A DNA stretch of 64,000 nucleotides from Bacteriovoracia bacterium (lineage in GTDB: Bacteria; Bdellovibrionota; UBA1018; CAIPTA01), in assembly GCA_050246755.1 (NCBI GenBank), contig JBFWVL010000001.1, positions 1,312,001 to 1,376,000 of the forward strand, written 5' to 3'. The translations under genes were made by a program, and so were the position numbers. Positions 1,977 to 36,262 of the stretch are shown here, piece by piece. The first letter of the stretch is position 1. Each line of letters begins with the position of its first letter. Under the pieces are notes generated by a model that saw only the letters and a list, made by a program, of their open reading frames with translations, had not been told where the DNA came from and did no database searches.

Positions 1977-2671
1977 AACCTCGGAAGTTTGTAGTTAGGG
2001 TTTTGGGTCTTTAGGGATTCTCCGAGCTGGCCGGAAACATCCATCATGTGACGGGTCATTTCCTTATCTCGGTGGTTTTGAAGGGCCAAAGCTTGCGCTT
2101 GGATTTTTAGACCCGTCGCCTGGGTGCGAAGACTTTGATTCATTACTGTCAACATCACGCCCATGCTTTCGGCAGTGAGCTTTTGTGCGCCGCCAGGAGA
2201 AACTGCGTGACTGTATTGCTTGATGGCTTCCCCAATCTGGTCGATGTCAGCAGTGTATTTGTAGATGGAGTTATTGAGAGAAATTGCTTCCGCCACACTT
2301 TGATCCGTGTCTTTCTGCACTCTCGCATCCTGCGAAGGTGTCACGGCACCATAAATCTGCTCCAAGCCCCGCAAGGCTTGGTCGAACTTATCCCAATTTT
2401 TGTAAATTCCTGGGTCGATGTTGGGATAAATCGTCCTTACGATGCCGAGCGAATCGTTGATGCCTCGATTGATGTCTCGTAAGAGTCCAAGGGTGTCAGC
2501 CCCATTGCCGATAATCTCCTTGAGCGCAATGAGCTGCTGGGCCGTGTTCGTCACGATCTGAATTAGTAGCGGAATGTCGCCACCCCAAAAATCGGCGCGG
2601 CTGGTGGTTGGCGCGAACACCAGAACGAGAGCCATCAAATGAACGAAGATCACTTTCTTTAATTTCTTCAC
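1973..2671 (-). CDS. T4SS secreted helical protein, VirB5/TrbJ-like
   Basis: Signal peptide (…TTSRA|DFWGGD), Gln-rich helical body, lies between VirB4- and VirB6-like genes with 4-bp overlaps. Confidence 0.6.
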   Translation of the reverse strand: MKKLKKVIFVHLMALVLVFAPTTSRADFWGGDIPLLIQIVTNTAQQLIALKEIIGNGADTLGLLRDINRGINDSLGIVRTIYPNIDPGIYKNWDKFDQALRGLEQIYGAVTPSQDARVQKDTDQSVAEAISLNNSIYKYTADIDQIGEAIKQYSHAVSPGGAQKLTAESMGVMLTVMNQSLRTQATGLKIQAQALALQNHRDKEMTRHMMDVSGQLGESLKTQNPNYKLPRF

Positions 2672-5088
2672 GAAACCCTCTCTTTCTCGAAAGCCGCAAT
2701 GCCGCGAGGATATTGTTCCGCGAGAATACGCAGCCGCATAAGATGGGAGTCATTCGGGCAATCCGCCGCGAGTTGATCGACAGCGGCCAAATCCTTCGGG
2801 TCGGTGGTAGCGATCCAGTATTCAAGCGGCGTGGATTCGACAACGGCGATGATGCGATTTTTCTGTGCTAGCAGAAATGCCTGAGATAGCCGCCCTTTCT
2901 CCTGGTAGAGTGACTTCACCATCTGCACTTCATTGTCGTTGAGGTCTAAAACCTCTTTCAGCCGTTCGCCGTCCACCTGCTGCTGGAGCAGCAGCCACTT
3001 GATCGAGCAGTTTGGCAGCAATGCCCCTGCGATCCGCGATTTAGCGAAGTCGTCTATGTCCTGCGAGATCGCAATGGCCGATGCCTTATATTTGCGGAAA
3101 GTTCTAAAAACCTCCTCGATGAACACGATCCCCGATTCGTTCTTGAGGAGCTTCCAGCACTCATCGAAGCAGAGGAATTTTTTGGTGAGCCGATCTTTTT
3201 GAACCTCGCGCCACACAAGATCGGTAATAAGGAACAGGCAAACGGCCTGGAGTTCCGGGTAGGTTTCCATGCCCTTGAGATCGAATGCGACCACTTGCTT
3301 ATCGAGGCTGATATTCGTCCTCTGATCGAGGAATTTGCCAAACAGCGAATCCCCGCACCAGGGTGCGAGAATTTTTCCGAAGCGGTTGATGGTTGGGTCT
3401 TTATGGTTGAGGAGAATCGTCCGGAGATCAGAGAGGCGTGGTGCCTTTGATGTCGCGTACACCTCTCTAATAGCCTCCTCCAGCTCGGCCCGCTCCAGCT
3501 TCGGCAGACGCGAAACATCTTCCTCCTTCGCCATGAGTTCGATCAACCCCACCAGAAATTTAATTTTCTGGTTCGAGACGACTTCCTCACCTGGGGCCAG
3601 GTCGAAAGGATTGATCGCAATTCCCTCGGAGACGCCGAGCGGAAGATATTGCCCCCCCAGGTTTTCGCAGAGCTTTTTATAGCTCCCGCCAATATCGACA
3701 AAGAAGATCTTAGGATTCTCTTTGAGCATCTGCATGAGGATGATGTTTGTGAGAAAGGATTTTCCGCTGCCTGACCCACCAGAGATCAGCATGTTGGAGT
3801 TCGTAAATTCTGAATCGAACGGGTCAAACTTCAAGAGCGCACCGGAGCCACTTCGTAAAAGAGCACTTGGCTCAGTGGTTCCCGTCCACGCACCGTAGAT
3901 CGGGAGGAGATCGGCAAGGTTTGATGTCTTCACTCGCTTGGATCGCTCCGCCGTCCGTGCATTAGGAATTGCCATCTGCGAGAAAATGTCGAAGGCCGCA
4001 ATCGTTTCCTGCATGGCTTCGCTACTCCCAAGACTTCGCACTGCAATGAGGGCCTGATTTACTTTGTCGTCCAGCTCCTCAAGGCTCTCCGATTTCAGGA
4101 GGATATTGAGACTCAGGCGAAAAACCTTTTCGCCACTAGCGATCATTTGCTCCAGCAGCGTTTCCAGGTCTTGCAGCTTTGCCTCGGATTCGATGTCAGA
4201 AACGCCGCTTCGCTTTCCCCGCGCCATTGAGAAAGCAATGCGCCTTTGTGTCTTGAGGCCCTCCATCTCCTTCGTCTGATCCGGCACATGAACGGAGAAA
4301 AACAGCCGCGATCCGAACGGAAGCCCCTGAAGGATTGCGCCAAGGCAGGAGTACGTCGCCTCCGGCAGAATCTTAAGAGACAAAACCCTATGATGGACTT
4401 TGCCGATGCAAAATCCCTCCTGAGAAATCGAGATGTCGGTGAGGCAAAGCGATTCACGCAGGTCTTCGGGGTCATACTGACCAAGCCCGATTTTGCGCGT
4501 GGGATTCCATTGCTTGTAGGTGAGTTTCAAAACTTCATCGGGGGCGAGAACGCGGGCGCTCAAACCCAATGATTTAATGCCCTGAAGCAGGTCTTCAAGC
4601 GTGCGGTCGAAGAAAGATAGCTCTTTCTTCAAACGATCTTCTGTTACTTCTTGAAATTTTGGTGTGAATGAAAAGAATTTCGTCCTATCGGTGAGTCGTT
4701 GCGAAAACGCCTTCCGTACAAAGATATGGAGATCGTACTTCGGGATGAATCCCTGCTGGTCAAATTTCCGAAACATCGAAGCGCGACCCAAGGCGAGCGC
4801 CTTTGCCGCCTCGTTGGTAGAGGCCAGCGCGGTTTTCTCAAAACCAGCGATCTCCTCTTCATTGCCATCTCGAATGTCGCAGACGAATTGAATGTCCAAT
4901 CCGCTTGGCAAGCTATTAAGAAATTGAATCAGACTTCCAGCTAGCGCGTTTTTTCCTTCATCAGAATAGGCAACCACATCTAGCGGCGAAACTCTGATGG
5001 CGGCCCCCAGCGAACCGTCCTCGAAAATCATGCGATCTTGTTCAAAGCCCCAGAGCTGAAGCTCATCGGTCAAAATGTCAGTTTTCAT
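2668..5088 (-). CDS. virB4: VirB4/TraC-family conjugation ATPase
   Basis: 806 aa; Walker A GGSGSGKS, Walker B FDECW, VDIGGSY and FRKY…ISQ motifs typical of VirB4/TraC. Confidence 0.9.
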   Translation of the reverse strand: MKTDILTDELQLWGFEQDRMIFEDGSLGAAIRVSPLDVVAYSDEGKNALAGSLIQFLNSLPSGLDIQFVCDIRDGNEEEIAGFEKTALASTNEAAKALALGRASMFRKFDQQGFIPKYDLHIFVRKAFSQRLTDRTKFFSFTPKFQEVTEDRLKKELSFFDRTLEDLLQGIKSLGLSARVLAPDEVLKLTYKQWNPTRKIGLGQYDPEDLRESLCLTDISISQEGFCIGKVHHRVLSLKILPEATYSCLGAILQGLPFGSRLFFSVHVPDQTKEMEGLKTQRRIAFSMARGKRSGVSDIESEAKLQDLETLLEQMIASGEKVFRLSLNILLKSESLEELDDKVNQALIAVRSLGSSEAMQETIAAFDIFSQMAIPNARTAERSKRVKTSNLADLLPIYGAWTGTTEPSALLRSGSGALLKFDPFDSEFTNSNMLISGGSGSGKSFLTNIILMQMLKENPKIFFVDIGGSYKKLCENLGGQYLPLGVSEGIAINPFDLAPGEEVVSNQKIKFLVGLIELMAKEEDVSRLPKLERAELEEAIREVYATSKAPRLSDLRTILLNHKDPTINRFGKILAPWCGDSLFGKFLDQRTNISLDKQVVAFDLKGMETYPELQAVCLFLITDLVWREVQKDRLTKKFLCFDECWKLLKNESGIVFIEEVFRTFRKYKASAIAISQDIDDFAKSRIAGALLPNCSIKWLLLQQQVDGERLKEVLDLNDNEVQMVKSLYQEKGRLSQAFLLAQKNRIIAVVESTPLEYWIATTDPKDLAAVDQLAADCPNDSHLMRLRILAEQYPRGIAAFEKERVS

Positions 5089-5408
5089 CTAGCCCCCTTG
5101 CGCAATAGTCGCGGCGGTTTTTGAAAAATTCTTGATTCAGGGAATGCCCAAAGAGCTTTCGGCCTCACCCAGAATTTTCCTAGGTGCAGTAGATAGTTGT
5201 CGGGCTTGCCGCGCTTTCCGATGCGAATTGTGAGGGCCACTGCCAGAGTGGGGAGCCACACTAAAAACAACTTCCCCGAAGCTGCGCCGAACAGAAAATT
5301 TAGGATCGAGAGCAGGAAGAAGATGAACAGCAAGTCAGGAATTTCAAATCCCATGACTTGCAGCTTTTTCTCCAAGCACTGGCTGACGGGCGTTACTTTC
5401 AAAGCCAT
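5085..5408 (-). CDS. VirB3/TraL-like small membrane protein
   Basis: Probable start MALKVTPV at 5408 with GGAG RBS; two TM segments and KRGKPDNYLLH tail; between pilin and VirB4. Confidence 0.65.
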   Translation of the reverse strand: MALKVTPVSQCLEKKLQVMGFEIPDLLFIFFLLSILNFLFGAASGKLFLVWLPTLAVALTIRIGKRGKPDNYLLHLGKFWVRPKALWAFPESRIFQKPPRLLRKGAR

Positions 5409-5482
5409 GTGTGATCTCCAACGAAAGAACCGCCGCCACCCAGAGAAAGACAATTCTCCGAGCGGCAGCGGGCGGGTGGCCC

Positions 5483-5767
5483 CTAGTGGATGAGTGTCTG
5501 GACAAATTCGATGATGGAGGGTGCGCCGAATCCGACGACGGCCCCCATGATCGCCAGGATCAGGTGCGAGCGAGCGTTCTGCGATCCCGTGAAGAACGAG
5601 AATGCAGCGAACACCAACCCCAGAATCCCAACGAGCGGAAGAACTGTATTGATGAGCTTTGACTGCACGGCCATCAGACTTGATTCAACGCTGGCAAACG
5701 CCATCGCGGGGGCCAGTAGCATCCCCACGGAGCCGAACAACGCGGCCCAGAACTTTTTGATTTTCAT
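5483..5767 (-). CDS. Conjugative pilin, TrbC/VirB2 family
   Basis: 94 aa; signal peptide (PAMAFA) plus two hydrophobic helices ending GAVVGFGAPSII; first of the vir-like genes. Confidence 0.8.
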   Translation of the reverse strand: MKIKKFWAALFGSVGMLLAPAMAFASVESSLMAVQSKLINTVLPLVGILGLVFAAFSFFTGSQNARSHLILAIMGAVVGFGAPSIIEFVQTLIH

Positions 5768-5846
5768 AAAACCCCTTTGCGAAATGGAAAGTCCTTCAAA
5801 CGGACTTTTTTAGTGGCGGGGTTGACTGTTGCGCGGGTGCCGAGCC

Positions 5847-6194
5847 TTAGTTGCTCGGATAGATGGACATATAGACCTTTTGTTTCGGAAGACGCAGGTT
5901 GATCTCCAGATACTCCTTCAAGTCGCTGCGCAAAATCGCGTAACCAACGGGATTTTGAAAATGCTCGCCGCTTTCGTTTTCGACTTTCTTGGTGAAGATC
6001 GTGAATTTTTCCGAGGAATCGCGGTTCATGCTTAGGTAATAGGTGACATTCGGGAACGGCCACAGCTTCAGGATGTAGTATTTCAGGTTTTCGTACTTCA
6101 GCGCATAGCCGATATGAAATGCGCTTTCAAGTTTCTGGCTGGTCTGGTTTCCAACAAACACATCATGCTTCATTTTATTCACTTCGAGTTCCAT
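5847..6194 (-). CDS. Hypothetical cytoplasmic beta-rich protein (115 aa)
   Basis: GGGGAA RBS, co-oriented with the transfer operon; function unknown. Confidence 0.7.
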   Translation of the reverse strand: MELEVNKMKHDVFVGNQTSQKLESAFHIGYALKYENLKYYILKLWPFPNVTYYLSMNRDSSEKFTIFTKKVENESGEHFQNPVGYAILRSDLKEYLEINLRLPKQKVYMSIYPSN

Positions 6195-6381: not shown

Positions 6382-6519
6382 CTATTGGCCCATGAGCCTT
6401 AGCGTATTGTTCAGTTCAGCAATCAAGCGGGCGTTGCTCATAATTTCTCGAATCGAGAGCGCCCCCATGAGTTCGTAAAGTTCGCGTTTGAGTAACATCA
6501 GCACTCTGGTTTCATTCAT
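6382..6519 (-). CDS. Small helical hypothetical protein (45 aa; MNETRVLMLLKRELYELMGALSIREIMSNARLIAELNNTLRLMGQ)
   Basis: Translated by hand; AGGGGG RBS and ATGA overlap with the upstream ORF. Confidence 0.55.
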   Translation of the reverse strand: MNETRVLMLLKRELYELMGALSIREIMSNARLIAELNNTLRLMGQ

Positions 6520-6671
6520 AAAATCCCCCTGCGAATGAATGCTTCTGGGTTCTTTCGATATAACTCGGATCGAGCGGCGTTTATTTTTTCTTGTACGCGA
6601 TCCGCTTCTTCAGAAGACCACCATAGCTTTCGGATTGCAGCCTTGAGAATTACGACAATCCTGCGCCTCAT
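6516..6671 (-). CDS. Small hypothetical protein (51 aa; MRRRIVVILKAAIRKLWWSSEEADRVQEKINAARSELYRKNPEAFIRRGIL)
   Basis: Translated by hand; ATGA overlaps at both ends indicate translational coupling. Confidence 0.55.
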   Translation of the reverse strand: MRRRIVVILKAAIRKLWWSSEEADRVQEKINAARSELYRKNPEAFIRRGIL

Positions 6672-6898
6672 GCGACACCGCCCACCGATTCCTCGGTTTC
6701 ATCTTTTAGTTTTGCGATTTTCTCGCGGGATTTCTGGGCGGCGACCTTTTCGGCCCACGCCGGAATGGGGAGATCATCGGATGATCGCGGTCGATCCATA
6801 AGATCGGGGCTGTAGTTGCAGCTCACACAAAATGCGTGAGTTTTCAGAACTTCGTAGCCGCGTTCATTGCAGCGCGGGCACGTTCGTAGGTAGCTCAT
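6668..6898 (-). CDS. Small zinc-ribbon protein (76 aa)
   Basis: CPRC…CVSC motif; AAGGAG RBS; first gene of the leftward operon. Confidence 0.7.
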   Translation of the reverse strand: MSYLRTCPRCNERGYEVLKTHAFCVSCNYSPDLMDRPRSSDDLPIPAWAEKVAAQKSREKIAKLKDETEESVGGVA

Positions 6899-7049: not shown

Positions 7050-7265
7050 TTCAAAAATTTTGGTTGGATAAGCGCGAGATGCCCTTTTTGGGGGGGGCTC
7101 GCGTATTCAAGAAATTTGTCGGCCTTCAAAGATTTTGAACGTGTAGTTTATTCAGAGATATTCAATTTTTTTGAATACTCGAAATCAAACAAAAACAGTC
7201 TATTCTTCAATGAGTTACCTGCTAAAACTGGGGCCATCGCACCCTTAGTATTCAAAAAATTTGAA
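7050..7265. promoter_or_regulatory. Array of TTCAA-N5-TTGAA palindromes, probable enhancer (UAS) for the sigma54 activator
   Basis: Perfect copies at 7125-7139, 7161-7175 and 7251-7265; partial copies at 7050-7063 and 7106-7120; roughly 105-320 bp upstream of the sigma54 promoter. Confidence 0.65.
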
Positions 7266-7370: not shown

Positions 7371-7386
7371 TGGCATCGGTCTTGCT
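7371..7386 (+). promoter_or_regulatory. Sigma54 (-24/-12) promoter of the YcaO operon
   Basis: TGGCATCGGTCTTGCT: GG-N10-GC with TT before GC; about 30 bp upstream of AGGGGG RBS/ATG at 7415. Confidence 0.8.
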
Positions 7387-7414
7387 CTCTTCGTGTTTAT
7401 CAGGGGGCCGATTT

Positions 7415-8386
7415 ATGATGGGCGATCTTGCTCAATACAATCAGAGAGTGAAAACGGGTTTTCAAAACCCACGGCTCTCACTCATTCCGAAAATCTCCAG
7501 TGAAGCGGAAATCAAACGGCCAGAGGGCTATGCACTTCCTGGGTTCGTGGCGCTCTCTGTAACTGCCGAAGCTGAGGGCTTAACGGCTACGGGCTACGGC
7601 GAAGGCCCGCGTGACCTTGCCCGCGGAAAGGCGATTTCCGAAGCATTCGAGCGATTGGCCCTCTTCAAATTCTGCGCGGACAGTAAAATCAGGGAAACAA
7701 GTAATGGCTGGGCCGCGCATCGTTCGGCTGACCTTGCGATCCGTGCGGCTACACTTGAATTGATTGAGCGTGATGTTGCTCTCAACTCATGGGAAGACGG
7801 CGGGCCTTTCTATGTAGTGCCCGAATCGCTTTGGCCGATGCCCTTATCTATATGGAAGGCAGAGCCACGCCCGCGCCTAGAATTTTTCGACCTTCGTATT
7901 CTTCTGAGTCAAGGTAACAACGGTGCGTGTATTTCTGCGCTCCTTTTTAACGAGAAGGAAAATTTCGTTGCGGGGCATGCCTCCGCGTTCAGGCTGGAAG
8001 ACGCGATTCTCTCCGCCGCAAATGAGTGCTTCAGGGCGGCACACTCCGCGATCCAATTTGAATTTCTCGCTGAGGTTACGGCTCTTCACGCTGGCGGGCC
8101 TGGAACTTGCGCCTCGCCAGGGGCTCACTCCCTGGCCTACGCCTACAAAGAGACGATGCCTGAAGTGGTGAGGATCGTGAGTGCCACGGAGAACGAAGTG
8201 CGCTCCCATTGGGAGCGACATCAAATCGTGTTGAACGACGTGAACCTCAGCGAATTCGATACGAAAACTTTTGAAGTTGACGACCGTATCGTGGCGCGAG
8301 TCAAAAGCCCCAGGCATCGGCAAATTTTTTGGGGCCGAACGAATGATTTGTCTAAACGAAACAAACACCCGCACTTTGTGGGTTAA
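7415..8386 (+). CDS. YcaO-family ATP-dependent peptide backbone-modifying enzyme (compact, 323 aa)
   Basis: Motifs KAISEAFER and TSNGWAAH…ATLELIERD, plus C-terminal NKHPHFVG resembling the YcaO Pro-rich terminus; start moved to ATG 7415 because the track start overlaps the promoter. Confidence 0.85.
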   Translation: MMGDLAQYNQRVKTGFQNPRLSLIPKISSEAEIKRPEGYALPGFVALSVTAEAEGLTATGYGEGPRDLARGKAISEAFERLALFKFCADSKIRETSNGWAAHRSADLAIRAATLELIERDVALNSWEDGGPFYVVPESLWPMPLSIWKAEPRPRLEFFDLRILLSQGNNGACISALLFNEKENFVAGHASAFRLEDAILSAANECFRAAHSAIQFEFLAEVTALHAGGPGTCASPGAHSLAYAYKETMPEVVRIVSATENEVRSHWERHQIVLNDVNLSEFDTKTFEVDDRIVARVKSPRHRQIFWGRTNDLSKRNKHPHFVG

Positions 8387-8396
8387 GGAGGTAAGT

Positions 8397-8684
8397 ATGC
8401 GTAAAAATGCAATCAAAGGGATCTTGTTCTCAATCGCTAGTGCGACAGGGTTTTCCGCGCTTGCGGGAGAACTCCCACAGGGCTTGCACTTAGTCGAGGA
8501 GCTTCCCATTGAACAGCGGGTGATCGTGCATCAGCAGGTATTGAAATTTTTGAATGAGCATCCCGAAAATGCAGCCGATGCCAAGGTTATCGCGGTGGAT
8601 GAAAAGGGGACTGTATATGTCTTGGATGATAAGATGGAAAAAATGGCTCGTGTTGGTCAGCCTAGCTGCGTTGGTGGGCTTTAA
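8397..8684 (+). CDS. Small secreted protein, putative YcaO substrate / RiPP precursor (95 aa, ends …ARVGQPSCVGGL)
   Basis: Strong AAGGAGGT RBS overlapping the YcaO stop; Sec-type signal peptide (ALA|G); the only Cys sits in a C-terminal PSC-GG tail. Confidence 0.7.
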   Translation: MRKNAIKGILFSIASATGFSALAGELPQGLHLVEELPIEQRVIVHQQVLKFLNEHPENAADAKVIAVDEKGTVYVLDDKMEKMARVGQPSCVGGL

Positions 8685-10113
8685 TTCGCCAATGGCGATT
8701 GCTGGTTCGGAGAAGTCGGTGAATACGAAAAGCGTAAGAACGTATATGAATTTCGCCGGAGAAATTGATCCTGCCCATATTTTAACTATGGCTGATCTTG
8801 AACTCTCCGTTGCCCTGGCTACTCCGCTCGTCGTGTTCAATAACGAGCGCCAGGTGGTTTCGGGCTTGGCGGAAACATGGGCGATTCTTCCACCCGACCG
8901 TGTATCCTTCACCCTTCGCAAGAACCTCCGGTGGTCTGACGGCTCTTCTGTTACGGCTGCGGATTACAAAACTGCGCTGGAACGGGCGAAGCGCCTCTAC
9001 GCAAGTGATCTCAAGGCCCTATTTGAATCCGTCACCCGGATCGAGGCCCCCGACGACCGCACTCTTATTTTTATAACGAAGGGTGCAGTCTCGGAGAGCG
9101 GATTGCTGCTCAAGCTCACCGAACCCATGTATGGGCTCGTCGCCCTGAAGGGCGACGCTCTCGATCTTTCAAAGACTGTCGGCCCATTTTTCCTTAAAGA
9201 GAAGCGCGGCGATGTTTTGACCTTGGAGGCGAATAAAAATTGGTACGCCTACTCCAAGGATATGCCCTTGCTCGTCGAAATCAAACGCCCCAAAGATGGC
9301 TTTGATTTGATGGCAACTTTTGAGAAGGACGACTGGCCGAACCTGACCTCCGGCGGCTCGCTCATGCCGAAGGAAACCTTCGACCACTTGAGGAAAAACG
9401 GCTTCAAAACTTGGCAACGCAGTCTCGACAAGGTTTATAGCCTTTATCCCTCAAAGCGGTTTCTGAAAGCTGGAGGCGCGAACTTTATAAAAATCCTGGC
9501 AAAGAATGTGAATAACGCTTCATTGCTTAAGGGGCTCACTGGCTATGCCGACGCGGAACAATTTTTTCCGCGCGGCTATGAGCTGTACTCCGTTCGGCAA
9601 CCGAAGCTCCAAGCTCTCGACAAGTGGAGCGGCAAGAATGCCATAGTGGTTCTGTTGCTGGATACACCTGTTCTCTCTGGCATGCGTGAAGCCCTGGGGA
9701 AGACAATCTCGAATCTGTCAGGACATCCGGCCAAGATCGAAGTTATCCCCACCGCGAAATTGAGTGAACGTATGAAGCGCGGCGATTTCGACATTCTCGG
9801 CGTACAGGTTGCCGTCGCCGATCCGAATTTTGAAGGTGCGATGTCATTTTTTATCGAAAAAGATCCGCCGTTCATTCCGTCAGGAGAGGGCGCGGAGGAT
9901 TTTTCAGCCCAACTTCGCCAAGCACGCGGCCTACCTTCGTCGGCGGAGCGTTCCGCCCGCATGAGGGAGATTATCGTTCAAGCGCAGGAAGCGGGCCACG
10001 TCTTGCCTCTCTTCCATTTTTCTAGCATTGCCGTTGCAAAACCCGGCGTCGATCTATCGGAAATCCCGAACTCTGACGAAACGATCCTATTTTCCAAGGT
10101 GAGAATGCGATGA
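8617..10113 (+). CDS. Family-5 (OppA/DppA-like) extracytoplasmic peptide-binding protein, orphan
   Basis: GLAETW…SFTLRKNLRWSDGSSVTAADY is the family-5 SBP signature; signal peptide; start at 8617 (AAGGGGA RBS) or 8626; no permease or ATPase genes nearby. Confidence 0.85.
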   Translation: MSWMIRWKKWLVLVSLAALVGFNSPMAIAGSEKSVNTKSVRTYMNFAGEIDPAHILTMADLELSVALATPLVVFNNERQVVSGLAETWAILPPDRVSFTLRKNLRWSDGSSVTAADYKTALERAKRLYASDLKALFESVTRIEAPDDRTLIFITKGAVSESGLLLKLTEPMYGLVALKGDALDLSKTVGPFFLKEKRGDVLTLEANKNWYAYSKDMPLLVEIKRPKDGFDLMATFEKDDWPNLTSGGSLMPKETFDHLRKNGFKTWQRSLDKVYSLYPSKRFLKAGGANFIKILAKNVNNASLLKGLTGYADAEQFFPRGYELYSVRQPKLQALDKWSGKNAIVVLLLDTPVLSGMREALGKTISNLSGHPAKIEVIPTAKLSERMKRGDFDILGVQVAVADPNFEGAMSFFIEKDPPFIPSGEGAEDFSAQLRQARGLPSSAERSARMREIIVQAQEAGHVLPLFHFSSIAVAKPGVDLSEIPNSDETILFSKVRMR

Positions 10114-11474
10114 AATCCGAATCCTTGGAGCAAAATGTAAAACGCCAAGCCCTCGCCTGGACGAGTGCAGGCATCGTTTTCACCCTTTGCCTCACAGGAT
10201 CGCTTTCGCTTTTCCTTATGTTTAAGGATACCGAGCGCCAAGTCGAAACGCTCTCGACCTCGGCCATCACATCGGAGCGCACCGACATTCTTTCCGGCGA
10301 TATTCGTTCGATAGAACTGCGACTTAGAAAAAACTTTGGCATCGCGCCCGATGAAAGGCTACTTTTCCTCGACTCAAAACGTGCGCCCTGGGTTGGGGAT
10401 CTAAAACAGGAGAAGTTATCGCCTTGTGCGAGCCAAATTCCGTGCAGGCAGTGGTTTAATCAGCGGATCGTTCTCGAAAAGCCGATCTACTTTGACGACG
10501 AGGGAAAGCATCTCTGGGGTTACCTGCACATTGAAAAAGAGGCTAAGGCGAACTGGTCGCTGATTCTTGGCGTTGCAATCTCCATCGTGCTGGGAATGCT
10601 TTTTCAGGGAATCGGCGCTTATTACAAAACCCTAAAGTCCATTCGAGCGGTGAGCGCGGTACTCGCCGCGTGGGCGAAGAAAATTTCTGAAAACCCCAAA
10701 GACCAAAGCGCCTACACCCAAGTGCCATTCACGGAGATTGCGCCTGTTGGAAACGCGCTCCACGGCATGAAAGATTATATCGACGCGCTCGAAAGCAACG
10801 CCCGCGAACAAGGTGCCTTGGTCACGCTTCGCGGGATCGGCCACGACATTCTGAATCCCGTCGCCCGCATGAAGCGTATTCTTGGTCTTATCGAAATCGA
10901 AAAGCAATCCAATCCTGAAAACATCGCAAGCCTTCGCGCCAATCTCAAGCGCCTATCGAGTTATGCCGAGCAATTGAAGCTCATCTACAAGCGACAGATC
11001 GGCGAAGCAGACGACACCGCTCCCACCGTGGATGTTGCGAAGGAAGTGCGCGAGTTAGCCTCGGAGCTGTTGACCGATCCCGAAGCCATTGAAAAGGGCC
11101 TCAAGCTCCAAGTCGATGCGCAAACGCCCTGTGTGAGCCGGATTCCCGCTCCCGCGCTGAATCGGATTGTCGAAAATCTTTGCAGCAATGGCATCTACGC
11201 TAGCCCCGAAGGGGCCACGCTGTCATTGAAAGTAGAATCCAACGGCGACCGCGTTTCAATTCTCGTGCGTGACGAGGGCTCTGGCATTCCCGATGTGCTG
11301 CAAGCGAAAATTTTTGAGCCCGACTTTACCACTAAAGGCAATAAGGGCACGGGCCTTGGTCTTTTCGTGGTGAAGCAAATCTGCGAGCAATATGGCGGAC
11401 GAATCGCATTTTCGTCTAGCAAGAGCGGAACCGCATTCACTCTGGACTTTCCACGCGTGGAGGTGAGCCTATGA
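10110..11474 (+). CDS. Membrane sensor histidine kinase
   Basis: Two TM helices flanking a periplasmic domain; H-box GIGHDILNP, N-box ENLCSNG, G1 DEGSGI, F-box IFEPDFTTK, G2 GTGLGL. Confidence 0.92.
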   Translation: MKSESLEQNVKRQALAWTSAGIVFTLCLTGSLSLFLMFKDTERQVETLSTSAITSERTDILSGDIRSIELRLRKNFGIAPDERLLFLDSKRAPWVGDLKQEKLSPCASQIPCRQWFNQRIVLEKPIYFDDEGKHLWGYLHIEKEAKANWSLILGVAISIVLGMLFQGIGAYYKTLKSIRAVSAVLAAWAKKISENPKDQSAYTQVPFTEIAPVGNALHGMKDYIDALESNAREQGALVTLRGIGHDILNPVARMKRILGLIEIEKQSNPENIASLRANLKRLSSYAEQLKLIYKRQIGEADDTAPTVDVAKEVRELASELLTDPEAIEKGLKLQVDAQTPCVSRIPAPALNRIVENLCSNGIYASPEGATLSLKVESNGDRVSILVRDEGSGIPDVLQAKIFEPDFTTKGNKGTGLGLFVVKQICEQYGGRIAFSSSKSGTAFTLDFPRVEVSL

Positions 11475-12841
11475 GCTACCGCATTCTCCTTGTGGACGAC
11501 GATAGAGAAAATCTGAACGTGAACAAGGCGATCCTCTCGGCCTCTGGCTACCAAGTTGCAACCGTGAAGTCGGGCCAAGAGGCCATCGACACAATCAAAT
11601 CAGCGAGGAAAGACTTTGCCCTGGTGCTAATGGACTATCACATGCCCGGTATGTCGGGGGCCGTCGCGGTAACGGAGATTAAAAAGATCAAGCCGCACCA
11701 GCAGATTTTGGCCTACTCCCTCGATGACAACCGCGATGTGATGCGCGAGACATTCAGGGCAGGCGTGGTCGATTTCCTCGACAAAAATTCCGAGAACGAG
11801 GTGCTGCTTTCAACTGTCGCCGCGTATTGCGAAAAGTACGAACAGGTTTTCCGCCCAATCGAAATCGACGATATTACCTCCGGCGAAAAAGAAAAATTCA
11901 TTCAAAGCGTAGGCATGATTGGATGCTCGGAGAAACTCTATGGATTGGCTCGTCAGATCGAGAAGGTCGCGCCGTCAAAGGCGACAACACTCATTCTCGG
12001 CGAGAGCGGAACGGGAAAGGAACTTGTGGCCCGCGCCCTTCATAAGCGCAGTGACCGCGCCGGCGGCCCGTTTATCGCCATCAACATTGCGGCGGAACCC
12101 GCATCGCTTCTCGACTCCGCATTATTCGGCCATCGCAAGGGATCATTCACAGGGGCAACGAACGATCAGCAAGGGAAATTCCAGCTCGCCAATAAGGGCA
12201 CGATTTTCTTAGATGAGATCGGCGACATGAGCCTTGACCTTCAAGTGAAGCTCCTCCGCGTTTTGCAGGAGCGCGAGATAACTCCGGTCGGAGCGGCGCG
12301 GCCCATTCCCGTTGATGTGCGTATTGTCGCGGCCACGCACCGCGATTTGTCGAAGATGGTTGTCGAAGGAAAATTCCGCGAAGACCTCTACTACCGTCTG
12401 AGCGCGGTGATCCTCGAAACCTCGCCGCTTCGGAATCGTCCCGAAGACTTGGAGCCGCTGGTAGTTCACTTTACACGGGAAATTTGTAAAGAAAACGGCT
12501 TCAGCCGTACATTTCACCGCCGCTGCCTTGAAGTGATGCGTGACTACTACTGGAAAGGAAACGTGCGCGAACTTCGCTCCGTAATCGAGCGCCACCTGAT
12601 CGCAAGCGACAGCGACTTGATCCGCGTCGAAGATTTAGATGCCCGCCTCTACCAAAAAAGAGAAACTGACGAACCAAAAACGCTGAAAGAAATCGACAAC
12701 TACCTTGAAGGGATCAAGAAGCAGATGGTGTTGGACGCAGTGAAAAGCACTCGCACCAAAGCGGAAGCCGCCCGGAAGCTCGACATTCCCCCGAACGGAC
12801 TTCACTATTTCGTGGTGAAGTACGGCCTCGATACGAAGTAG
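11471..12841 (+). CDS. NtrC-family sigma54-dependent response regulator (REC-AAA+-HTH)
   Basis: ILLVDDD and LMDYHMP receiver, GESGTGKE Walker A, GSFTGA loop, FLDEIGD, FREDLYYRL, WKGNVREL, C-terminal Fis-type HTH. Confidence 0.95.
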   Translation: MSYRILLVDDDRENLNVNKAILSASGYQVATVKSGQEAIDTIKSARKDFALVLMDYHMPGMSGAVAVTEIKKIKPHQQILAYSLDDNRDVMRETFRAGVVDFLDKNSENEVLLSTVAAYCEKYEQVFRPIEIDDITSGEKEKFIQSVGMIGCSEKLYGLARQIEKVAPSKATTLILGESGTGKELVARALHKRSDRAGGPFIAINIAAEPASLLDSALFGHRKGSFTGATNDQQGKFQLANKGTIFLDEIGDMSLDLQVKLLRVLQEREITPVGAARPIPVDVRIVAATHRDLSKMVVEGKFREDLYYRLSAVILETSPLRNRPEDLEPLVVHFTREICKENGFSRTFHRRCLEVMRDYYWKGNVRELRSVIERHLIASDSDLIRVEDLDARLYQKRETDEPKTLKEIDNYLEGIKKQMVLDAVKSTRTKAEAARKLDIPPNGLHYFVVKYGLDTK

Positions 12842-12973: not shown

Positions 12974-13204
12974 ATGGAGATGCGAATGCAGGCGATTGAG
13001 CCCTGGTACTCAGTTGAGGAAATTGCTCGTCACTTAGGCGTTTCAAAAGAAACGATCTATCGCTGGATTGAGCGCCGAAACATACCAGCTCATCGCATGG
13101 GGAAACTCTGGAAATTCAAACCTAGCGAAGTGGACGCATGGGTACAGAATGGTGGCGCTGCCGATGATCGCACGCACCGCAATCCACCGGAAAGCAGCGT
13201 GTGA
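12974..13204 (+). CDS. Excisionase-like winged-HTH DNA-binding protein
   Basis: WYSVEEIARHLGVSKETIYRWI…IPAHRMGKLWKFKPSEVDAW is a typical HTH_17/Xis pattern; start may be the later Met. Confidence 0.85.
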   Translation: MEMRMQAIEPWYSVEEIARHLGVSKETIYRWIERRNIPAHRMGKLWKFKPSEVDAWVQNGGAADDRTHRNPPESSV

Positions 13205-13208
13205 CCTG

Positions 13209-22512: not shown

Positions 22513-22528
22513 TGGCACATCGCTTGCC
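22513..22528 (+). promoter_or_regulatory. Sigma54 (-24/-12) promoter upstream of the second defence operon
   Basis: TGGCACATCGCTTGCC matches TGGCAC-N5-TTGC exactly; intergenic, followed by GAGGA RBS and ATG at 22553. Confidence 0.7.
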
Positions 22529-26236: not shown

Positions 26237-26239
26237 GCT

Positions 26240-26872
26240 ATGAAGCAATTAAATCGTGCAGCCGTAGCGCCGCCAGGAGTCCTTGTAAACTATTCTCATC
26301 CCGCGAACACATGGGATGATGTTTCGACTCCCGACAAAGCAGAGATTAGAACGGCTCTGGAACAAATGCAGGGACGCCGTTGCGCTTATTGCGAGGGCTC
26401 CATTGATGAACTTGGACAGCATATTGAACATTTCCGAAGAAAGCGGGTGTTTCCACATCTTACGTTCGCTTGGGACAACTTACTTTGGTGCTGCGATGCC
26501 CGCGACTCATGCGGGCATTACAAAGATAGAAAAGGATGGCCCTACGACATAAATCATCTGCTCAATCCGTGCATACACGACCCGGATAATTTCTTTCGAT
26601 TTAGAACAGACGGATCGATTTCGATCCGCCGAGGACTGAATCAGCAAGAACTAAGGATGGCGCAAGAGACTCTGCGAGTGTTAAACATCGATCCTGAGTG
26701 GGGGCGGCTACGCCAAATGAGAAAGCGTGCGGTCTCTACTTTTCTCACATTGCTGGACGACCTGAATGGTTTCACCGAAACCGAGCTTCAGCAGTTGCTT
26801 CAAGATGAATTAATTCAGGCAAGGGGTCTTCCATTTTACACCGTCGTCAGACACGCTTTAACTCGCGCGTGA
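26240..26872 (+). CDS. ptuB: PtuB-like HNH endonuclease
   Basis: MQGRRCAYCE…HIEHFRRK…LTFAWDNL…SCGHYKD; directly follows ptuA. Confidence 0.85.
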   Translation: MKQLNRAAVAPPGVLVNYSHPANTWDDVSTPDKAEIRTALEQMQGRRCAYCEGSIDELGQHIEHFRRKRVFPHLTFAWDNLLWCCDARDSCGHYKDRKGWPYDINHLLNPCIHDPDNFFRFRTDGSISIRRGLNQQELRMAQETLRVLNIDPEWGRLRQMRKRAVSTFLTLLDDLNGFTETELQQLLQDELIQARGLPFYTVVRHALTRA

Positions 26873-29232: not shown

Positions 29233-29451
29233 ATGAAGAATGCTAATAATGATGTCCTCGCAAAGCTCCGAAAAGACGTTATGAGCGAAATAAACAAGCA
29301 TTATAAAACCGTCGAGCAGTTTTGCTGGGAGAATGACCTTAACAAGGCGACCCTTTCTAATTTTCTTAACGATAAAAAAGACTTTAGAGTCTCTACGCTT
29401 GCCCAGATAGCCAAGGCATTAGGTAGAGAACTAAAAATCTCGTTAAATTAG
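29233..29451 (+). CDS. XRE-family HTH transcriptional regulator
   Basis: TVEQFC…LNKATLSNFLN…FRVSTLAQIAKALG; GGGAG RBS; divergent from the other HTH gene. Confidence 0.8.
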   Translation: MKNANNDVLAKLRKDVMSEINKHYKTVEQFCWENDLNKATLSNFLNDKKDFRVSTLAQIAKALGRELKISLN

Positions 29452-29952: not shown

Positions 29953-29976
29953 GAATGCGAAACGTAACAAATTAAA

Positions 29977-35557: not shown

Positions 35558-35571
35558 TCTTCCGCTATCCC

Positions 35572-35802: not shown

Positions 35803-35858
35803 GCTATTACCCGTGAACTTTCAGTACCATGTGCTCGGAAATTGCGTCAAGAATATCG

Positions 35859-36254: not shown

Positions 36255-36262
36255 GAAAGGCC

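What the first reader, a model, noticed from the sequence alone, without database searches (positions are those of the whole stretch)
7371..12841. Candidate new system: YcaO-modified peptide pheromone / quorum-sensing circuit on an ICE (ycaO - secreted precursor - OppA-like receptor - histidine kinase - sigma54 activator)
Seen: five tightly packed genes (one 10-bp gap, otherwise overlaps) under a canonical sigma54 promoter, with the last gene being a sigma54 activator. The operon sits back-to-back with a conjugation operon. Known: YcaO enzymes phosphorylate peptide backbone carbonyls to make azolines, thioamides or amidines in RiPPs. Family-5 SBPs bind peptides (e.g. the pheromone receptor PrgZ). 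Mobile elements use signals to gate transfer (TraI/TraR, Rap-Phr of ICEBs1, cCF10). Inference: this operon makes a modified peptide signal, captures it with the orphan SBP, relays it through the kinase and bEBP, and auto-induces in agr-like logic, while controlling transfer and defence. There is no toxin-type exporter, immunity gene or ABC permease, which argues for signalling rather than an antibiotic or uptake role. I know of no described YcaO-dependent autoinducer in a diderm ICE, but cannot search the literature here.
Basis: partly seen in the sequence, partly recalled or inferred. Interest (0 to 1): 0.93.

Follow-up and report, generated by a model that had tools for sequence, protein, structure and literature searches.

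The report
YcaO-tailed secreted protein sensing cassette
A five-gene cassette kept next to the DNA-transfer genes of mobile elements in predatory Bdellovibrio-like bacteria pairs a peptide-backbone-modifying enzyme and a small exported protein with a binding-protein/kinase/activator circuit that appears to switch on its own promoter, so it may be a new kind of self-signalling device.

Summary
Window 7371-12841 carries a sigma54 promoter followed by five packed genes: a minimal 323-aa YcaO, a 95-aa Sec-signal protein, an orphan family-5 binding protein, a two-TM histidine kinase and an NtrC-type activator. They lie back-to-back with T4SS genes in an integrase-bearing island.

Related loci add four points:
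- The cassette is conserved in Bdellovibrionota. VirB4 lies upstream in 15 of 16 loci with enough flank.
- The sigma54 promoter recurs in 20 of 22 loci.
- Clade-specific palindromes (TTCAA-, TTCAG- or CACAG-N5) repeat upstream in 13 of 18 loci, which points to autoregulation.
- 50 of 52 small proteins end in P-[ST]-[CS]-hydrophobic plus a 1-12 aa tail. Wider relatives also carry Thr at that position. Cys/Ser/Thr are the three residues that YcaO enzymes cyclise into azolines.

A second, divergent cassette with its own T4SS and its own palindrome type sits in the same genome.

The YcaO-substrate pairing and the self-activated two-component loop are well supported. Not shown are that the binding protein reads the modified tail, that the signal leaves the cell, or that transfer and defence are controlled. 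I found no description in the papers searched. Verdict: new variant of known kinds, function partly inferred.

The parts
7125..7265 (.). Three perfect TTCAA-N5-TTGAA palindromes (7125-7139, 7161-7175, 7251-7265), at -246, -210 and -120 from the -24 element. Proposed binding sites (UAS) of the operon's bEBP.
   Evidence: 3 sites in the window against 0.15 expected. There are 9 in the whole 3.55-Mb genome, and 3 of them are here. The same arm is repeated in 10 loci, and other arms occur in other clades.
7371..7386 (+). sigma54 (-24/-12) promoter TGGCATcggtcTTGCT
   Evidence: A comparable site lies 40-80 nt before the YcaO start in 20 of 22 loci, against 3.7% of shuffles. rpoN is present in the genome.
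7415..8386 (+). Minimal YcaO-like enzyme, 323 aa, with no hydrophobic segment (cytoplasmic)
   Evidence: Pfam YcaO 39.9 bits. The AF2 model has pLDDT 88. The first 37 Foldseek PDB hits are all YcaO enzymes. SEAxER, ELIERD and a C-terminal N-x-x-P-H-x-V are invariant or nearly so in 16 sequences. No KD window >=1.6.
8397..8684 (+). 95-aa pre-protein: Sec-type signal peptide (about 1-24), a strand-helix-three-strand domain, then a free tail carrying P89-S90-C91-V92. Proposed YcaO substrate.
   Evidence: Strong SD AAGGAGG. Conserved in every locus that has the gap. Alignment A2. AF2 pLDDT is about 80 in the core and the tail is disordered. Motif found in 50 of 52 sequences and 62 of 75. dN/dS 0.10-0.19.
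8617..10113 (+). Orphan family-5 (OppA/NikA-like) periplasmic solute-binding protein with a signal peptide. Its first 22 or so codons overlap the end of the small gene.
   Evidence: Pfam SBP_bac_5 65.1 bits. Profile against PDB gives OppA, MppA, AapF, NikA, chitin-oligosaccharide BP and MbnE. Start read from the sequence.
10110..11474 (+). Sensor histidine kinase with two TM segments (about 18-39 and 146-171) and a periplasmic loop of about 105 aa
   Evidence: HATPase_c 79.7 bits. AtoS/ZraS-like in NCBIfam. Hydropathy scan.
11471..12841 (+). NtrC-type sigma54 activator (receiver, AAA+ with GSFTGA, C-terminal HTH)
   Evidence: Sigma54_activat 231.8 bits and Response_reg 76.9 bits. AtoC/NtrC-like. 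GSFTGA read in the translation.
6668..6898 (-). 76-aa CxxC...CxxC zinc-ribbon protein. It is the conserved divergent neighbour and the fastest-evolving gene of the region.
   Evidence: tblastn hits beside the cassette in 15 of the 23 related loci (one at E = 0.001), and in the genome's second copy. dN 0.21-0.24 and dN/dS 0.2-0.29.
2668..6194 (-). T4SS genes transcribed away from the cassette: orf115 (5847-6194), TrbC/VirB2-like pilin (5483-5767), TraL-like (5085-5453), TraC/VirB4 ATPase (2668-5088)
   Evidence: Pfam P-loop_TraG 150 bits and TraC_F_IV. TrbC and TraL are sub-threshold. Synteny is kept in 15 of 16 loci with >=2.9 kb upstream.

Best explanation
This is a self-activating production-and-perception module that belongs to the core of a family of integrative T4SS elements of Bdellovibrionota.

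Proposed steps:
1. A sigma54 promoter drives all five genes.
2. The cytoplasmic, partner-less YcaO uses ATP to activate a backbone amide in the C-terminal P-[ST]-[C/S/T]-hydrophobic motif of the 95-aa pre-protein. The most likely product is a thiazoline or oxazoline (-18 Da). This step is inferred.
3. The modified pre-protein is exported by Sec and its signal peptide is removed. The site sits at the extreme C-terminus, which is the last part to leave the cytoplasm. This step is inferred.
4. In the periplasm, the modified tail is the ligand of the orphan OppA-like binding protein. The tail may be on the 70-aa domain, or trimmed or released. This is the weakest step and is inferred from linkage only.
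5. The loaded binding protein acts on the short periplasmic loop of the kinase, and the kinase phosphorylates the bEBP.
6. The bEBP binds the repeated TTCAA-N5-TTGAA sites and re-activates the promoter.

Each cassette type has its own tail, SBP, HK, bEBP and DNA site, so two elements in one cell stay insulated.

Two things are unresolved. One is whether the loop is cell-autonomous (a switch) or shared between cells (a pheromone). The other is how it reaches the T4SS genes; the shared divergent control region is the likeliest route.
For: Conserved unit.
- 23 related loci were found, all Bdellovibrionota-type. Gene order YcaO-small-SBP-HK-bEBP is kept down to about 30% YcaO identity.
- A full second copy lies on contig C6 of the same genome.
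- A distant cousin (L036) with permuted order holds all five parts. A second one (L034) holds a bEBP, a 75-aa secreted protein without the motif, an SBP, a YcaO and an HK.

Enzyme.
- The YcaO fold is confident (pLDDT 88; Foldseek prob 1.00 to M. kandleri and M. jannaschii YcaO, McbD, E. coli YcaO and LynD).
- The two glutamate-rich motifs align to MJ1094 and are invariant.

Substrate.
- 50 of 52 distinct small proteins carry P-[ST]-[CS] in the last 16 residues (28 PSC, 19 PSS, 3 PTC). The next residue is I/V/W/F/Y in 48 of those 50.
- Among 75 small representatives from a library-wide profile search, 62 have the motif and 4 more have P-S-T-aromatic. The position is therefore Cys, Ser or Thr.
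- The motif is kept whether or not the gene end overlaps the SBP gene.

Regulation.
- The sigma54 site is present in 20 of 22 loci against 3.7% of shuffles.
- A repeated 5-N5-5 palindrome is present in 13 of 18 loci against 6 of 3600 shuffles. The proximal copy lies at -96 to -123.
- The arms differ by clade: TTCAA in 10 loci, TTCAG in 2 loci and in the genome's own second copy, CACAG in 1.
- The bEBP has GSFTGA and rpoN is present.

Specificity-like divergence. Against L009, the flanks on both sides are 92-95% identical in protein (dN 0.02-0.05). The five cassette proteins are 70-78% identical (dN 0.14-0.18).

Precedents.
- Sec-exported, protein-like RiPPs exist (bufferins; passages read).
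- A YcaO can recognise a folded leader (abstract).
- SBPs encoded beside kinases often activate them (abstract in the listing).
Against: - No result here shows that the YcaO acts on the small protein or that the SBP binds it.
- The canonical C-terminal PxPxP of azoline-forming YcaOs is not present as such. Only N-x-x-P-H-x-V-x is conserved.
- No RRE or E1-like partner, dehydrogenase or TfuA is in the operon. TfuA was not found in the genome, which is 95.7% complete.
- The mature product is a folded domain of about 70 aa. Sec delivers it only to the periplasm, and no outer-membrane exporter or protease gene is in the cassette. An intercellular pheromone is therefore not the simplest reading.
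- OppA-type proteins usually bind free short peptides (recalled).
- The palindrome cluster is found only at the operon's own promoter within the island, so no output gene is identified.
- One locus with 10 kb of upstream sequence (L021) has the cassette without T4SS genes. It also lacks a detectable sigma54 site and has F-S-C in place of P-S-C.
- dN/dS is below 0.3 everywhere and dS is saturated, so diversifying selection is not demonstrated.
Confidence: 0.4

Rival explanations
1. Input and output are separate. The SBP-HK-bEBP arm senses an outside cue, such as peptides, cell-wall peptides or oligosaccharides from prey, recipients or the environment. The YcaO-modified secreted protein is the induced product and acts in the envelope for the T4SS, for example in mating-pair formation, exclusion or protection.
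For: - The nearest solved relatives of the SBP bind oligopeptides, murein tripeptide, nickel chelates or chitin oligosaccharides.
- The chitin-binding protein CBP controls the kinase ChiS (abstract in the listing).
- The small gene has the strongest ribosome-binding site of the operon, as expected for a product made in bulk.
- It is a folded domain rather than a short peptide.
- The cassette always sits beside the pilin/VirB4 genes.
Against: - An external cue does not explain why the SBP, HK, bEBP and DNA site diverge in step with the small protein and YcaO, or why two orthogonal sets coexist in one genome.
- The five genes stay together even when their order is permuted.
Confidence: 0.28
2. 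The small protein is a periplasmic feedback modulator of its own two-component system, in the manner of CpxP with CpxA (recalled). It damps or sets the threshold of signalling by touching the SBP or the kinase loop. The YcaO modification tunes that contact, and the loop never leaves the cell.
For: - The protein is exported only as far as the periplasm by its Sec signal and is a folded small domain.
- It is co-transcribed with, and apparently induced by, the system it would modulate.
- No export or processing gene is present.
Against: - No similarity to any known periplasmic modulator was found. Foldseek gives nothing below E 0.4 and Pfam gives nothing above threshold.
- This reading does not explain why a backbone-modifying enzyme is needed.
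Confidence: 0.14
3. A metal-related system like the bufferins or methanobactin. The azoline-bearing protein binds a metal in the periplasm, and a NikA/MbnE-like SBP reports the loaded form to the kinase.
For: - Bufferins are Sec-exported, protein-like RiPPs with Cys-derived heterocycles that chelate copper (passages).
- NikA, CntA-type proteins and MbnE are among the profile hits of the SBP (MbnE at E 1e-4).
Against: - There is only one conserved Cys/Ser/Thr site, and Ser or Thr replace Cys in many members. That is poor for metal binding.
- There are no metal-efflux or redox genes in the cassette.
- Constant linkage to T4SS genes has no metal logic.
Confidence: 0.06
4. A bacteriocin-type antimicrobial RiPP made by the element and regulated by a two-component system.
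For: YcaO enzymes make many antimicrobial peptides, such as microcin B17 (McbBCD is among the fold hits).
Against: - There is no immunity gene, ABC exporter or leader protease in any of the loci read.
- There is a single modification site on a 70-aa folded domain.
- An orphan SBP has no role in that scheme.
Confidence: 0.04

Closest known systems
Partner-less / minimal YcaO enzymes: McrA-Gly thioamidation YcaO of M. kandleri and M. jannaschii, bottromycin YcaOs, McbD of microcin B17
   Same: Same fold, with Foldseek prob 1.00 and TM 0.47-0.55. The same two glutamate motifs are present. The size class is similar: 323 aa against 365-385 aa for the archaeal enzymes. The site lies near a C-terminus and is followed by a short 'follower' stretch, as described for bottromycin and spyrimidone (passage).
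   Different: Sequence similarity is marginal (best PDB E 3e-4; NCBIfam SagD model 25 bits against a cut-off of 219). There is no TfuA, E1-like/RRE partner or dehydrogenase. The C-terminal motif is N-x-x-P-H-x-V, not PxPxP. The substrate carries a Sec signal peptide and a folded 60-aa domain. The chemistry is untested.
Bufferins (MNIO-modified, Sec-exported, protein-like RiPPs)
   Same: [quoted passage not shown] Modification is presumed to occur in the cytoplasm before export to the periplasm (passages).
   Different: The enzyme family differs (YcaO, not MNIO plus DUF2063). There is one C/S/T site instead of several Cys. Here the cassette is linked to an SBP/HK/bEBP circuit and T4SS genes, not to copper stress.
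Kinases controlled by an adjacent solute-binding protein: ChiS-CBP of Vibrio cholerae, AgtS/AruS of P. aeruginosa, LuxP-LuxQ (the last recalled)
   Same: An orphan periplasmic binding protein is encoded beside a membrane kinase with no permease. CBP belongs to the same SBP family (hit 1zty, E 3.5e-9; abstracts in the listing).
   Different: In those systems the ligand is an environmental or metabolic small molecule. Here a dedicated enzyme and a secreted protein are co-encoded and co-vary with the receptor arm.
Peptide control of conjugation: PrgZ/cCF10 of pCF10 and RapI-PhrI of ICEBs1 (recalled; review PMC6540685 seen only in the listing)
   Same: A mobile element carries a peptide-signal circuit that uses an OppA-family binding protein, and the element encodes its own secreted peptide.
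   Different: Those are monoderm systems. Their peptides are unmodified, imported and read by cytoplasmic regulators. Here the host is a diderm, perception would be periplasmic through HK and bEBP/sigma54, and a YcaO is involved.
agr-type autoinducing modified peptides (recalled)
   Same: The operon encodes the modifying enzyme, precursor, sensor kinase and response regulator, and activates its own promoter. Divergent specificity groups exist.
   Different: The chemistry is different (AgrB thiolactone), there is no SBP, and the product is a short exported peptide rather than a Sec-routed 70-aa domain. Autoinduction here is inferred from DNA sites only.

Membership tests
YcaO superfamily (PF02624) | Profile match above the curated threshold | tested here: met
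   39.9 bits against a cut-off of 25.7, covering profile positions 112-239 of 325 only. All relatives carry PF02624 in the precomputed column.
YcaO superfamily (PF02624) | YcaO fold | tested here: met
   AF2 pLDDT 88 and pTM 0.87. All 37 Foldseek PDB hits with E <= 0.001 are YcaO enzymes.
YcaO superfamily (PF02624) | Conserved acidic ATP/Mg2+-binding motifs. Their role is recalled, not tested here. | tested here: met
   E76, E79, R80 (SEAxER) and E115, E118, R119 (ELIERD) are invariant in 16 sequences. Both motifs align to MJ1094.
Azoline-forming YcaO cyclodehydratases | C-terminal PxPxP motif | tested here: not met
   The C-terminus is N-x-x-P-H-F/I-V-G/S, with N316, P319 and H320 invariant. 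It has a single Pro. PxPxP is called canonical in a passage of 10.1101/2025.07.11.664356.
Azoline-forming YcaO cyclodehydratases | E1-like/RRE partner or fused leader-binding domain, and often a dehydrogenase | tested here: not met
   None is present among the five genes or the neighbours scanned. The model shows only the YcaO domain.
Azoline-forming YcaO cyclodehydratases | Substrate with Cys/Ser/Thr at the modified position | tested here: met
   P-[ST]-[CS] in 50 of 52 sequences. In the wider family, 62 of 75 have it and 4 have P-S-T. The modification itself is not testable here.
Thioamide-forming YcaO/TfuA systems | Adjacent or genomic TfuA | tested here: not met
   PF07812 was not found in the genome, which is 95.7% complete. 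The control genome gave a hit.
Family-5 solute-binding proteins (PF00496) | Profile match, signal peptide, and cognate ABC permease genes | tested here: inconclusive
   Profile: 65.1 bits against 32.4, covering only the first 146 of 368 positions. A signal peptide is read in the sequence. No permease-type family turned up among the island ORFs scanned. It is therefore a family member used without a local transporter.
NtrC-family bacterial enhancer-binding protein | Receiver, sigma54-interaction AAA+ with a GAFTGA-type loop, and a C-terminal HTH | tested here: met
   Response_reg 76.9 bits, Sigma54_activat 231.8 bits, and HTH_8 weak at 16 bits. GSFTGA is visible in the translation.
sigma54-dependent promoter | -24 GG and -12 GC elements at fixed spacing, upstream activator sites, and rpoN in the genome | tested here: met
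   Transcription itself is not testable here, and no RNA run was listed.
Quorum-sensing / pheromone circuit | The signal is released from the producer, accumulates outside cells and is bound by the receptor | not testable with these tools
   Only the Sec signal (export to the periplasm) can be read. No exporter or protease gene is in the cassette.
Quorum-sensing / pheromone circuit | Autoinduction of the signal genes by the response regulator | tested here: inconclusive
   The promoter and the clade-specific repeated palindromes fit autoinduction. Binding of this bEBP to them is inferred.
Integrative and conjugative element | Integrase, mating-pair T4SS, coupling ATPase, relaxase, and defined ends | tested here: inconclusive
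   - Phage_integrase, 72 bits (L032:14509-15678).
- FtsK/SpoIIIE-like ATPase.
- VirB10-like (weak), TraC/VirB4, TraL-like and TrbC-like.
- tRNA-Ser at 29863-29952 at the far edge.
- Patchy occurrence: 62 of 401 genomes of the phylum, and 2 of 4 in the same genus.
- No relaxase was recognised.
- Only a 14-bp repeat (E 0.03) serves as a candidate end.

The most novel reading that the evidence does not exclude
A YcaO-made azoline tail on a Sec-exported small protein is a type-specific self-signal. It is read in the periplasm by an orphan OppA-like protein, a kinase and a sigma54 activator. Through it, each integrative T4SS element of predatory bacteria would recognise or count cells carrying the same element type and gate its own transfer. 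That would be the first YcaO-dependent autoinducer, the first Sec-routed YcaO substrate, and a pherotype system in a diderm mobile element.
Probability: 0.28. Interest if true: 0.9.

Novelty: new variant of a known kind. Interest (0 to 1): 0.7.

Why it matters
Three consequences would follow if this reading holds.
- YcaO chemistry would extend to a Sec-exported, protein-like substrate and to signalling rather than antibiosis.
- Conjugative elements of a diderm phylum would gain a peptide/protein-based control circuit comparable to the pheromone systems of Gram-positive plasmids.
- The cassette would supply a set of naturally orthogonal parts (tail, SBP, HK, bEBP, DNA site) for study.

The cassette is small and self-contained, and its predictions are directly testable. 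They are a mass shift at one residue, binding to one protein, and one promoter with defined sites.

The cassette is also a marker for an undescribed family of integrative T4SS elements in Bdellovibrionota.

Tried and rejected
- Complex prediction of the SBP (A3, residues 27-495) with the mature small protein (A2, residues 25-95) returned 'no answer' with a score of 0.00. It counts neither for nor against binding.
- Foldseek of the small-protein model against PDB found nothing. The best E was 0.42, from fragments of beta-propeller blades.
- Pfam at E <= 10 on all 32 members of A2 gave only sub-threshold recurring hits: US22 in 17 and SUKH-3 in 14. The protein atlas gave one unnamed cluster at 0.77. 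I treat these as no assignment.
- The library-wide profile search (collected) returned 1438 hits at E <= 0.001. Of the best 150, 75 are long repeat proteins that match only profile positions of about 55-95 (the D-x-x-G hairpin). I treated those as motif resemblance and left them out of the motif count, which used the 75 proteins of <=140 aa.
- No RNA holder was listed for the stretch, so expression could not be examined and read laying was not used.
- The sigma54 pattern by itself is not enriched in the window: 23 sites at <=2 mismatches against 26.5 expected, and 2 at <=1 mismatch against 1.8. A second one-mismatch site at 22513 has no palindromes nearby and was set aside as probably chance.
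- Positive selection was looked for and not found. dS is saturated (0.8 to above 2) and all dN/dS values are below 0.3.
- Island ends: only a 14-bp repeat was found (window 29433-29446 = L032 11146-11159, E 0.03). I do not rely on it.
- No relaxase was found among the ORFs scanned with Pfam or NCBIfam.
- The consensus scan for sigma70 promoters and terminators was at the level of its shuffles.
- Per-domain identities of the HK and bEBP showed no sharp sensor-specific divergence.
- Rows dropped. L006 (3 nt upstream) and L010 (5'-truncated YcaO) were left out of the promoter count of 22. L007, L016, L021 and L023 (short upstream region or no promoter hit) were left out of the palindrome count of 18. 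L026-L030 were not treated as family members because the YcaO matches were weak (E 5e-6 to 1e-4).
- Literature. Searches for YcaO with Bdellovibrio (3 papers, none on this system), for YcaO with quorum sensing, SBP and histidine kinase, for YcaO with Sec signal peptide, RiPP and periplasm, for YcaO with ICE, sigma-54, autoinducer or pheromone (none of the 15 papers listed of the 1,162 that matched holds YcaO), and for Bdellovibrio with ICE and T4SS gave no description of this cassette. Supplementary files were not consulted.

Full report
WHAT IS THERE. The window is G000:C1:1312001-1376000 of a 3.55-Mb genome of Bdellovibrionota type (relatives). On the + strand lie the following genes.
- A YcaO-like gene, 7415-8386 (323 aa).
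- A 95-aa gene, 8397-8684.
- A family-5 solute-binding protein. The ORF runs from 8554, the likely start is ATG 8617, and it ends at 10113.
- A histidine kinase, 10110-11474.
- An NtrC-type sigma54 activator, 11471-12841.

There is a 10-bp gap after ycaO and there are 4-bp overlaps at SBP/HK and HK/bEBP. In addition, the end of the small gene and the signal-peptide codons of the SBP overlap by about 68 nt. Pfam and NCBIfam confirm the families, with two caveats. The YcaO match is partial (39.9 bits, central third of the model). No HisKA model fires on the kinase, although an H-box is visible. TGGCATcggtcTTGCT at 7371-7386 is one mismatch from the sigma54 consensus and lies 44 nt before the YcaO start codon. 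The bEBP has a GSFTGA loop, and rpoN is in the genome.

SURROUNDINGS.
- Transcribed the other way are a 76-aa zinc-ribbon protein (6668-6898), two small ORFs, a TrbC/VirB2-like pilin, a TraL-like protein and a TraC/VirB4 ATPase.
- Further left, outside the window, are a weak VirB10-like protein, an FtsK/SpoIIIE-like ATPase and a tyrosine integrase. Menaquinone genes follow.
- To the right of the bEBP come a MAD1/excisionase-type HTH, an SNF2/NOV_C helicase, DUF1156 and DUF499 proteins (a methylation-associated defence set), and further ATPases. tRNA-Ser and tRNA-Arg lie at 29863-30053.
- Housekeeping genes down to dnaA follow.

The cassette therefore lies in an island of about 39 kb with an integrase and T4SS genes. 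I found no relaxase and only a weak 14-bp candidate end repeat. 'ICE' is likely but not complete.

IS THE CASSETTE A UNIT?
- The YcaO has 97 database relatives, mostly 316-326 aa.
- A scan of one genome per species found 23 real loci, all labelled Bdellovibrionota apart from two 'Pseudomonadota' MAGs and one evidently mis-binned MAG.
- tblastn with the window's proteins shows YcaO-small-SBP-HK-bEBP in that order wherever the contig is long enough, down to about 27-35% YcaO identity.
- Of 16 loci with at least 2.9 kb upstream, 15 have VirB4 (with TraL and pilin) in the same divergent position. L021 does not. The seven loci with less upstream sequence cannot tell, and one of them, L010, has a 5'-truncated YcaO.
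- The window's genome holds a complete second copy on contig C6, with its own zinc-ribbon, pilin, TraL and VirB4 genes.
- Nothing downstream of the bEBP is conserved. A terminator-like hairpin and a promoter-like site separate it from the defence genes, but that scan is at background level.
- In 401 genomes sampled across the phylum, 62 have a match at E <= 1e-10 (46 of 204 genera; 2 of 4 other genomes of the same genus). This patchy pattern is what a mobile element would give.
- Some of the weak matches are cousins with permuted order. L036 reads bEBP, a 96-aa secreted protein ending GGSICW, SBP, YcaO, HK, and has T4SS genes 5 kb away. L034 reads bEBP, a 75-aa secreted protein, SBP, YcaO, HK, and has no T4SS gene in 20 kb.

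The five functions therefore travel together even when shuffled.

THE ENZYME.
- Sixteen diverse members share invariant SEAxER and ELIERD motifs and a C-terminal N-x-x-P-H-x-V.
- The two acidic motifs align with those of M. jannaschii MJ1094. That they bind ATP/Mg2+ is my recollection of the YcaO literature.
- The AF2 model is confident (pLDDT 88).
- All 37 PDB matches at E <= 0.001 are YcaO enzymes: the McrA-thioamidating archaeal ones, McbD, E. coli YcaO, LynD/TruD and MusD, the last titled as an ATP-dependent peptidase.
- The protein has no hydrophobic segment, no fused or neighbouring RRE/E1-like partner, and no dehydrogenase.
- TfuA was not found in the genome.
- The canonical PxPxP of azoline-forming YcaOs (passage) is not present as such.

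THE SMALL PROTEIN.
- Every locus has, between ycaO and the SBP gene, an ORF of 92-113 aa. It has a positively charged N-terminus, a hydrophobic core and an A-x-A-like site, which I read as a Sec signal.
- The window's gene has the strongest Shine-Dalgarno of the operon and is under purifying selection (dN/dS 0.10-0.19).
- AF2 gives a strand-helix-three-strand domain with pLDDT of about 80 and a free tail from residue 88. No solved structure or Pfam family matches it.
- The tail carries the most conserved feature. P-[ST]-[CS] lies within the last 16 residues in 50 of 52 distinct sequences (28 PSC, 19 PSS, 3 PTC). It is followed by I/V/W/F/Y in 48 of the 50, and then by 0-11 variable residues. 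The exceptions are P0112 (PSR) and L021 (FSC).
- A profile search of 1.84 billion representatives found 75 small proteins among the best 150 hits. Of these, 62 have the motif, 5 have F-S-C and 4 have P-S-T-aromatic.
- One position that is Cys, Ser or Thr, next to a YcaO gene, is the expected signature of a cyclodehydration site.
- The motif is kept both in clades where the gene end overlaps the SBP gene and in clades where it does not. It is therefore not a by-product of the overlap.
- A cytoplasmic modification of a Sec substrate has a published precedent in the bufferins. A site at the very C-terminus is the part that stays longest in the cytoplasm.

THE REGULATORY ARM.
- The kinase has two TM segments and a periplasmic loop of about 105 aa.
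- The SBP is a divergent family-5 member. Its nearest solved relatives are OppA, MppA, AapF, NikA, the chitin-oligosaccharide protein that controls ChiS, and MbnE. Its ligand cannot be read from sequence.
- A sigma54 site stands 40-80 nt before the YcaO start in 20 of 22 regions, never on the opposite strand, against 3.7% of shuffled regions.
- Upstream of it, 13 of 18 loci have the same 5-N5-5 palindrome repeated 2-5 times, against 6 of 3600 shuffles. The proximal copy lies at -96 to -123, the usual place for an enhancer-binding protein.
- The arms are TTCAA in the window's clade and in L011-L014, TTCAG in L018, L019 and the genome's own C6 copy (five sites), and CACAG in L020.
- In the window the three perfect sites (7125-7265) are the only ones in 64 kb, and 3 of 9 in the whole genome.
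- I infer that each bEBP activates its own operon, and that the two cassettes in this genome are insulated from each other.
- No sigma54 site faces the T4SS genes, and I found no second target. The only visible route to the T4SS genes is the shared 470-bp divergent region that the palindromes span.

RATE OF CHANGE. Against L009, the genes on both sides are 92-95% identical in protein (VirB4, TraL, the HTH and the helicase; dN 0.02-0.05). The five cassette proteins are 70-78% identical (dN 0.14-0.18) and the zinc-ribbon protein is 60-66% identical (dN 0.21-0.24). dS is saturated everywhere and dN/dS stays below 0.3. The cassette is a fast-evolving segment between slow ones, as in specificity loci. 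Positive selection is not shown.

MOST LIKELY MECHANISM. Shown by sequence and comparison:
- a conserved sigma54 operon with clade-specific upstream repeats;
- a competent-looking minimal YcaO;
- a Sec-type small protein with a C/S/T site;
- an orphan SBP beside a kinase;
- constant linkage to T4SS genes;
- orthogonal copies in one genome.

Inferred:
- the YcaO cyclises the C/S/T of the tail before export;
- the modified tail is what the SBP recognises;
- SBP, HK and bEBP close a positive loop on the promoter.

Weakest are the SBP-tail link, the question of whether anything leaves the cell, and the output. I put the whole chain at about 0.4. The more limited statement, that this is a YcaO-substrate pair plus a self-activated SBP-dependent two-component system forming one module of these elements, I put at about 0.85.

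RIVALS.
- The sensor arm reads an outside cue and the modified protein is the product: 0.28.
- The small protein is a periplasmic feedback modulator: 0.14.
- A metal-related, bufferin-like role: 0.06.
- A bacteriocin: 0.04.

The co-divergence of all five parts and the DNA site, and their staying together under gene-order permutation, favour a closed ligand-receptor set. The folded 70-aa product, the lack of an exporter or protease, and the lack of an identified output argue against a classical diffusible pheromone.

COMPARISON AND NOVELTY. The parts belong to known families: YcaO, family-5 SBP, HK, NtrC-type bEBP and a sigma54 promoter. The combination does not match any system I could find in five literature searches. 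Neither NCBIfam nor Pfam has a model for the small protein or a specific one for this YcaO.

The system resembles bufferins in routing a modified protein through Sec. It resembles bottromycin-type YcaO chemistry in a near-C-terminal site with a follower stretch. It resembles ChiS-CBP in SBP-to-kinase coupling, and agr, pCF10 and ICEBs1 in element-borne self-signalling logic (the last three recalled). It is not a member of any of those systems. I class it as a new variant of known kinds, with interest 0.7. It is conserved across many genera, compact and directly testable, but its central functional links are still inference.

Noticed in passing
window 12974-22512 (and 22965-28880): A methylation-associated defence-type gene set lies directly after the cassette. 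It comprises a MAD1/excisionase-like HTH (12974-13204), an SNF2 helicase with a NOV_C domain (13068-16739), a DUF1156 protein (16739-19669) and a DUF499 protein (19666-22512). After these come HATPase_c_3, AAA_15/AAA_21 and DUF2779 proteins. The HTH and helicase are 94-95% identical in L009, but are absent from the held 5.5-kb downstream stretch of L003, L004 and L008. They are therefore variable cargo.
   Followed up: partly
G000 contig C6, locus L033 5505-15644: A second, divergent copy of the whole cassette is in the same genome (YcaO 31-33%, SBP 38%, HK 31%, bEBP 45% identical). It has its own zinc-ribbon, pilin, TraL and VirB4 genes. Its small protein ends in PSCWTAPF, its sigma54 site is TGGCCCCGTCCTTGCT, and it has five TTCAG-N5-CTGAA palindromes.
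   Followed up: yes
L034 6503-12382; L036 8008-13872: Distant cousins of the cassette have permuted gene order: bEBP, small secreted protein, SBP, a YcaO of about 315-325 aa, then a hybrid HK. In L036 the small protein ends in GGSICW and T4SS genes lie nearby. In L034 the small protein lacks the motif and no T4SS gene lies within 20 kb.
   Followed up: partly
window 8617-8684: The last 22 or so codons of the small gene, including the P-S-C codons, overlap the signal-peptide codons of the SBP gene in another frame. The overlap is kept in the window's clade (up to about 95 nt in L003-L009) and is absent in the divergent clades.
   Followed up: partly
window 22513-22528: A second one-mismatch sigma54-like site (TGGCACATCGCTTGCC) lies right after the stop of the DUF499 gene, about 450 nt before the HATPase_c_3 gene. 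It has no palindromes nearby and is probably chance.
   Followed up: partly
window 29863-30053; window 29433-29446 and L032 11146-11159: tRNA-Ser(GCT) and tRNA-Arg(ACG) mark the right edge of the island. A 14-bp direct repeat is shared with the left edge next to the menaquinone genes. It is the only candidate attachment repeat found, and it is weak (E 0.03).
   Followed up: partly
window 34856-46329: The chromosomal origin neighbourhood is here: atpB, gyrA (37032-39524), gyrB (39549-42056), recF (42057-43190), a 370-aa ORF (43190-44302) and a 481-aa ORF (44884-46329). The last two are in the positions expected for dnaN and dnaA but were not scanned. The island sits about 15 kb from this region.
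   Followed up: no
profile positions 55-95 of A2 (window 8559-8684): The D-x-x-G-x-V-Y-V-L-D hairpin of the small protein matches, many times over, repeats in very large proteins (600-4400 aa, 4-24 stretches each) in the library-wide search. Pfam gives sub-threshold hits to the SBBP and NHL propeller repeats. I read this as a blade-like hairpin motif, not homology of the whole protein.
   Followed up: partly
L021 (record titled as a Streptomyces griseus MAG): This contig carries a Bdellovibrionota-type cassette, so it is probably mis-binned. It is also the one locus without T4SS genes in 10 kb upstream, without a detectable sigma54 site, and with F-S-C instead of P-S-C.
   Followed up: no
window 6516-6898: The zinc-ribbon gene and the 51-codon ORF after it are the fastest-changing coding stretch of the region (about 60% and 40-50% protein identity where the flanks are about 90%). 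They may belong functionally to the cassette rather than to the T4SS operon.
   Followed up: no
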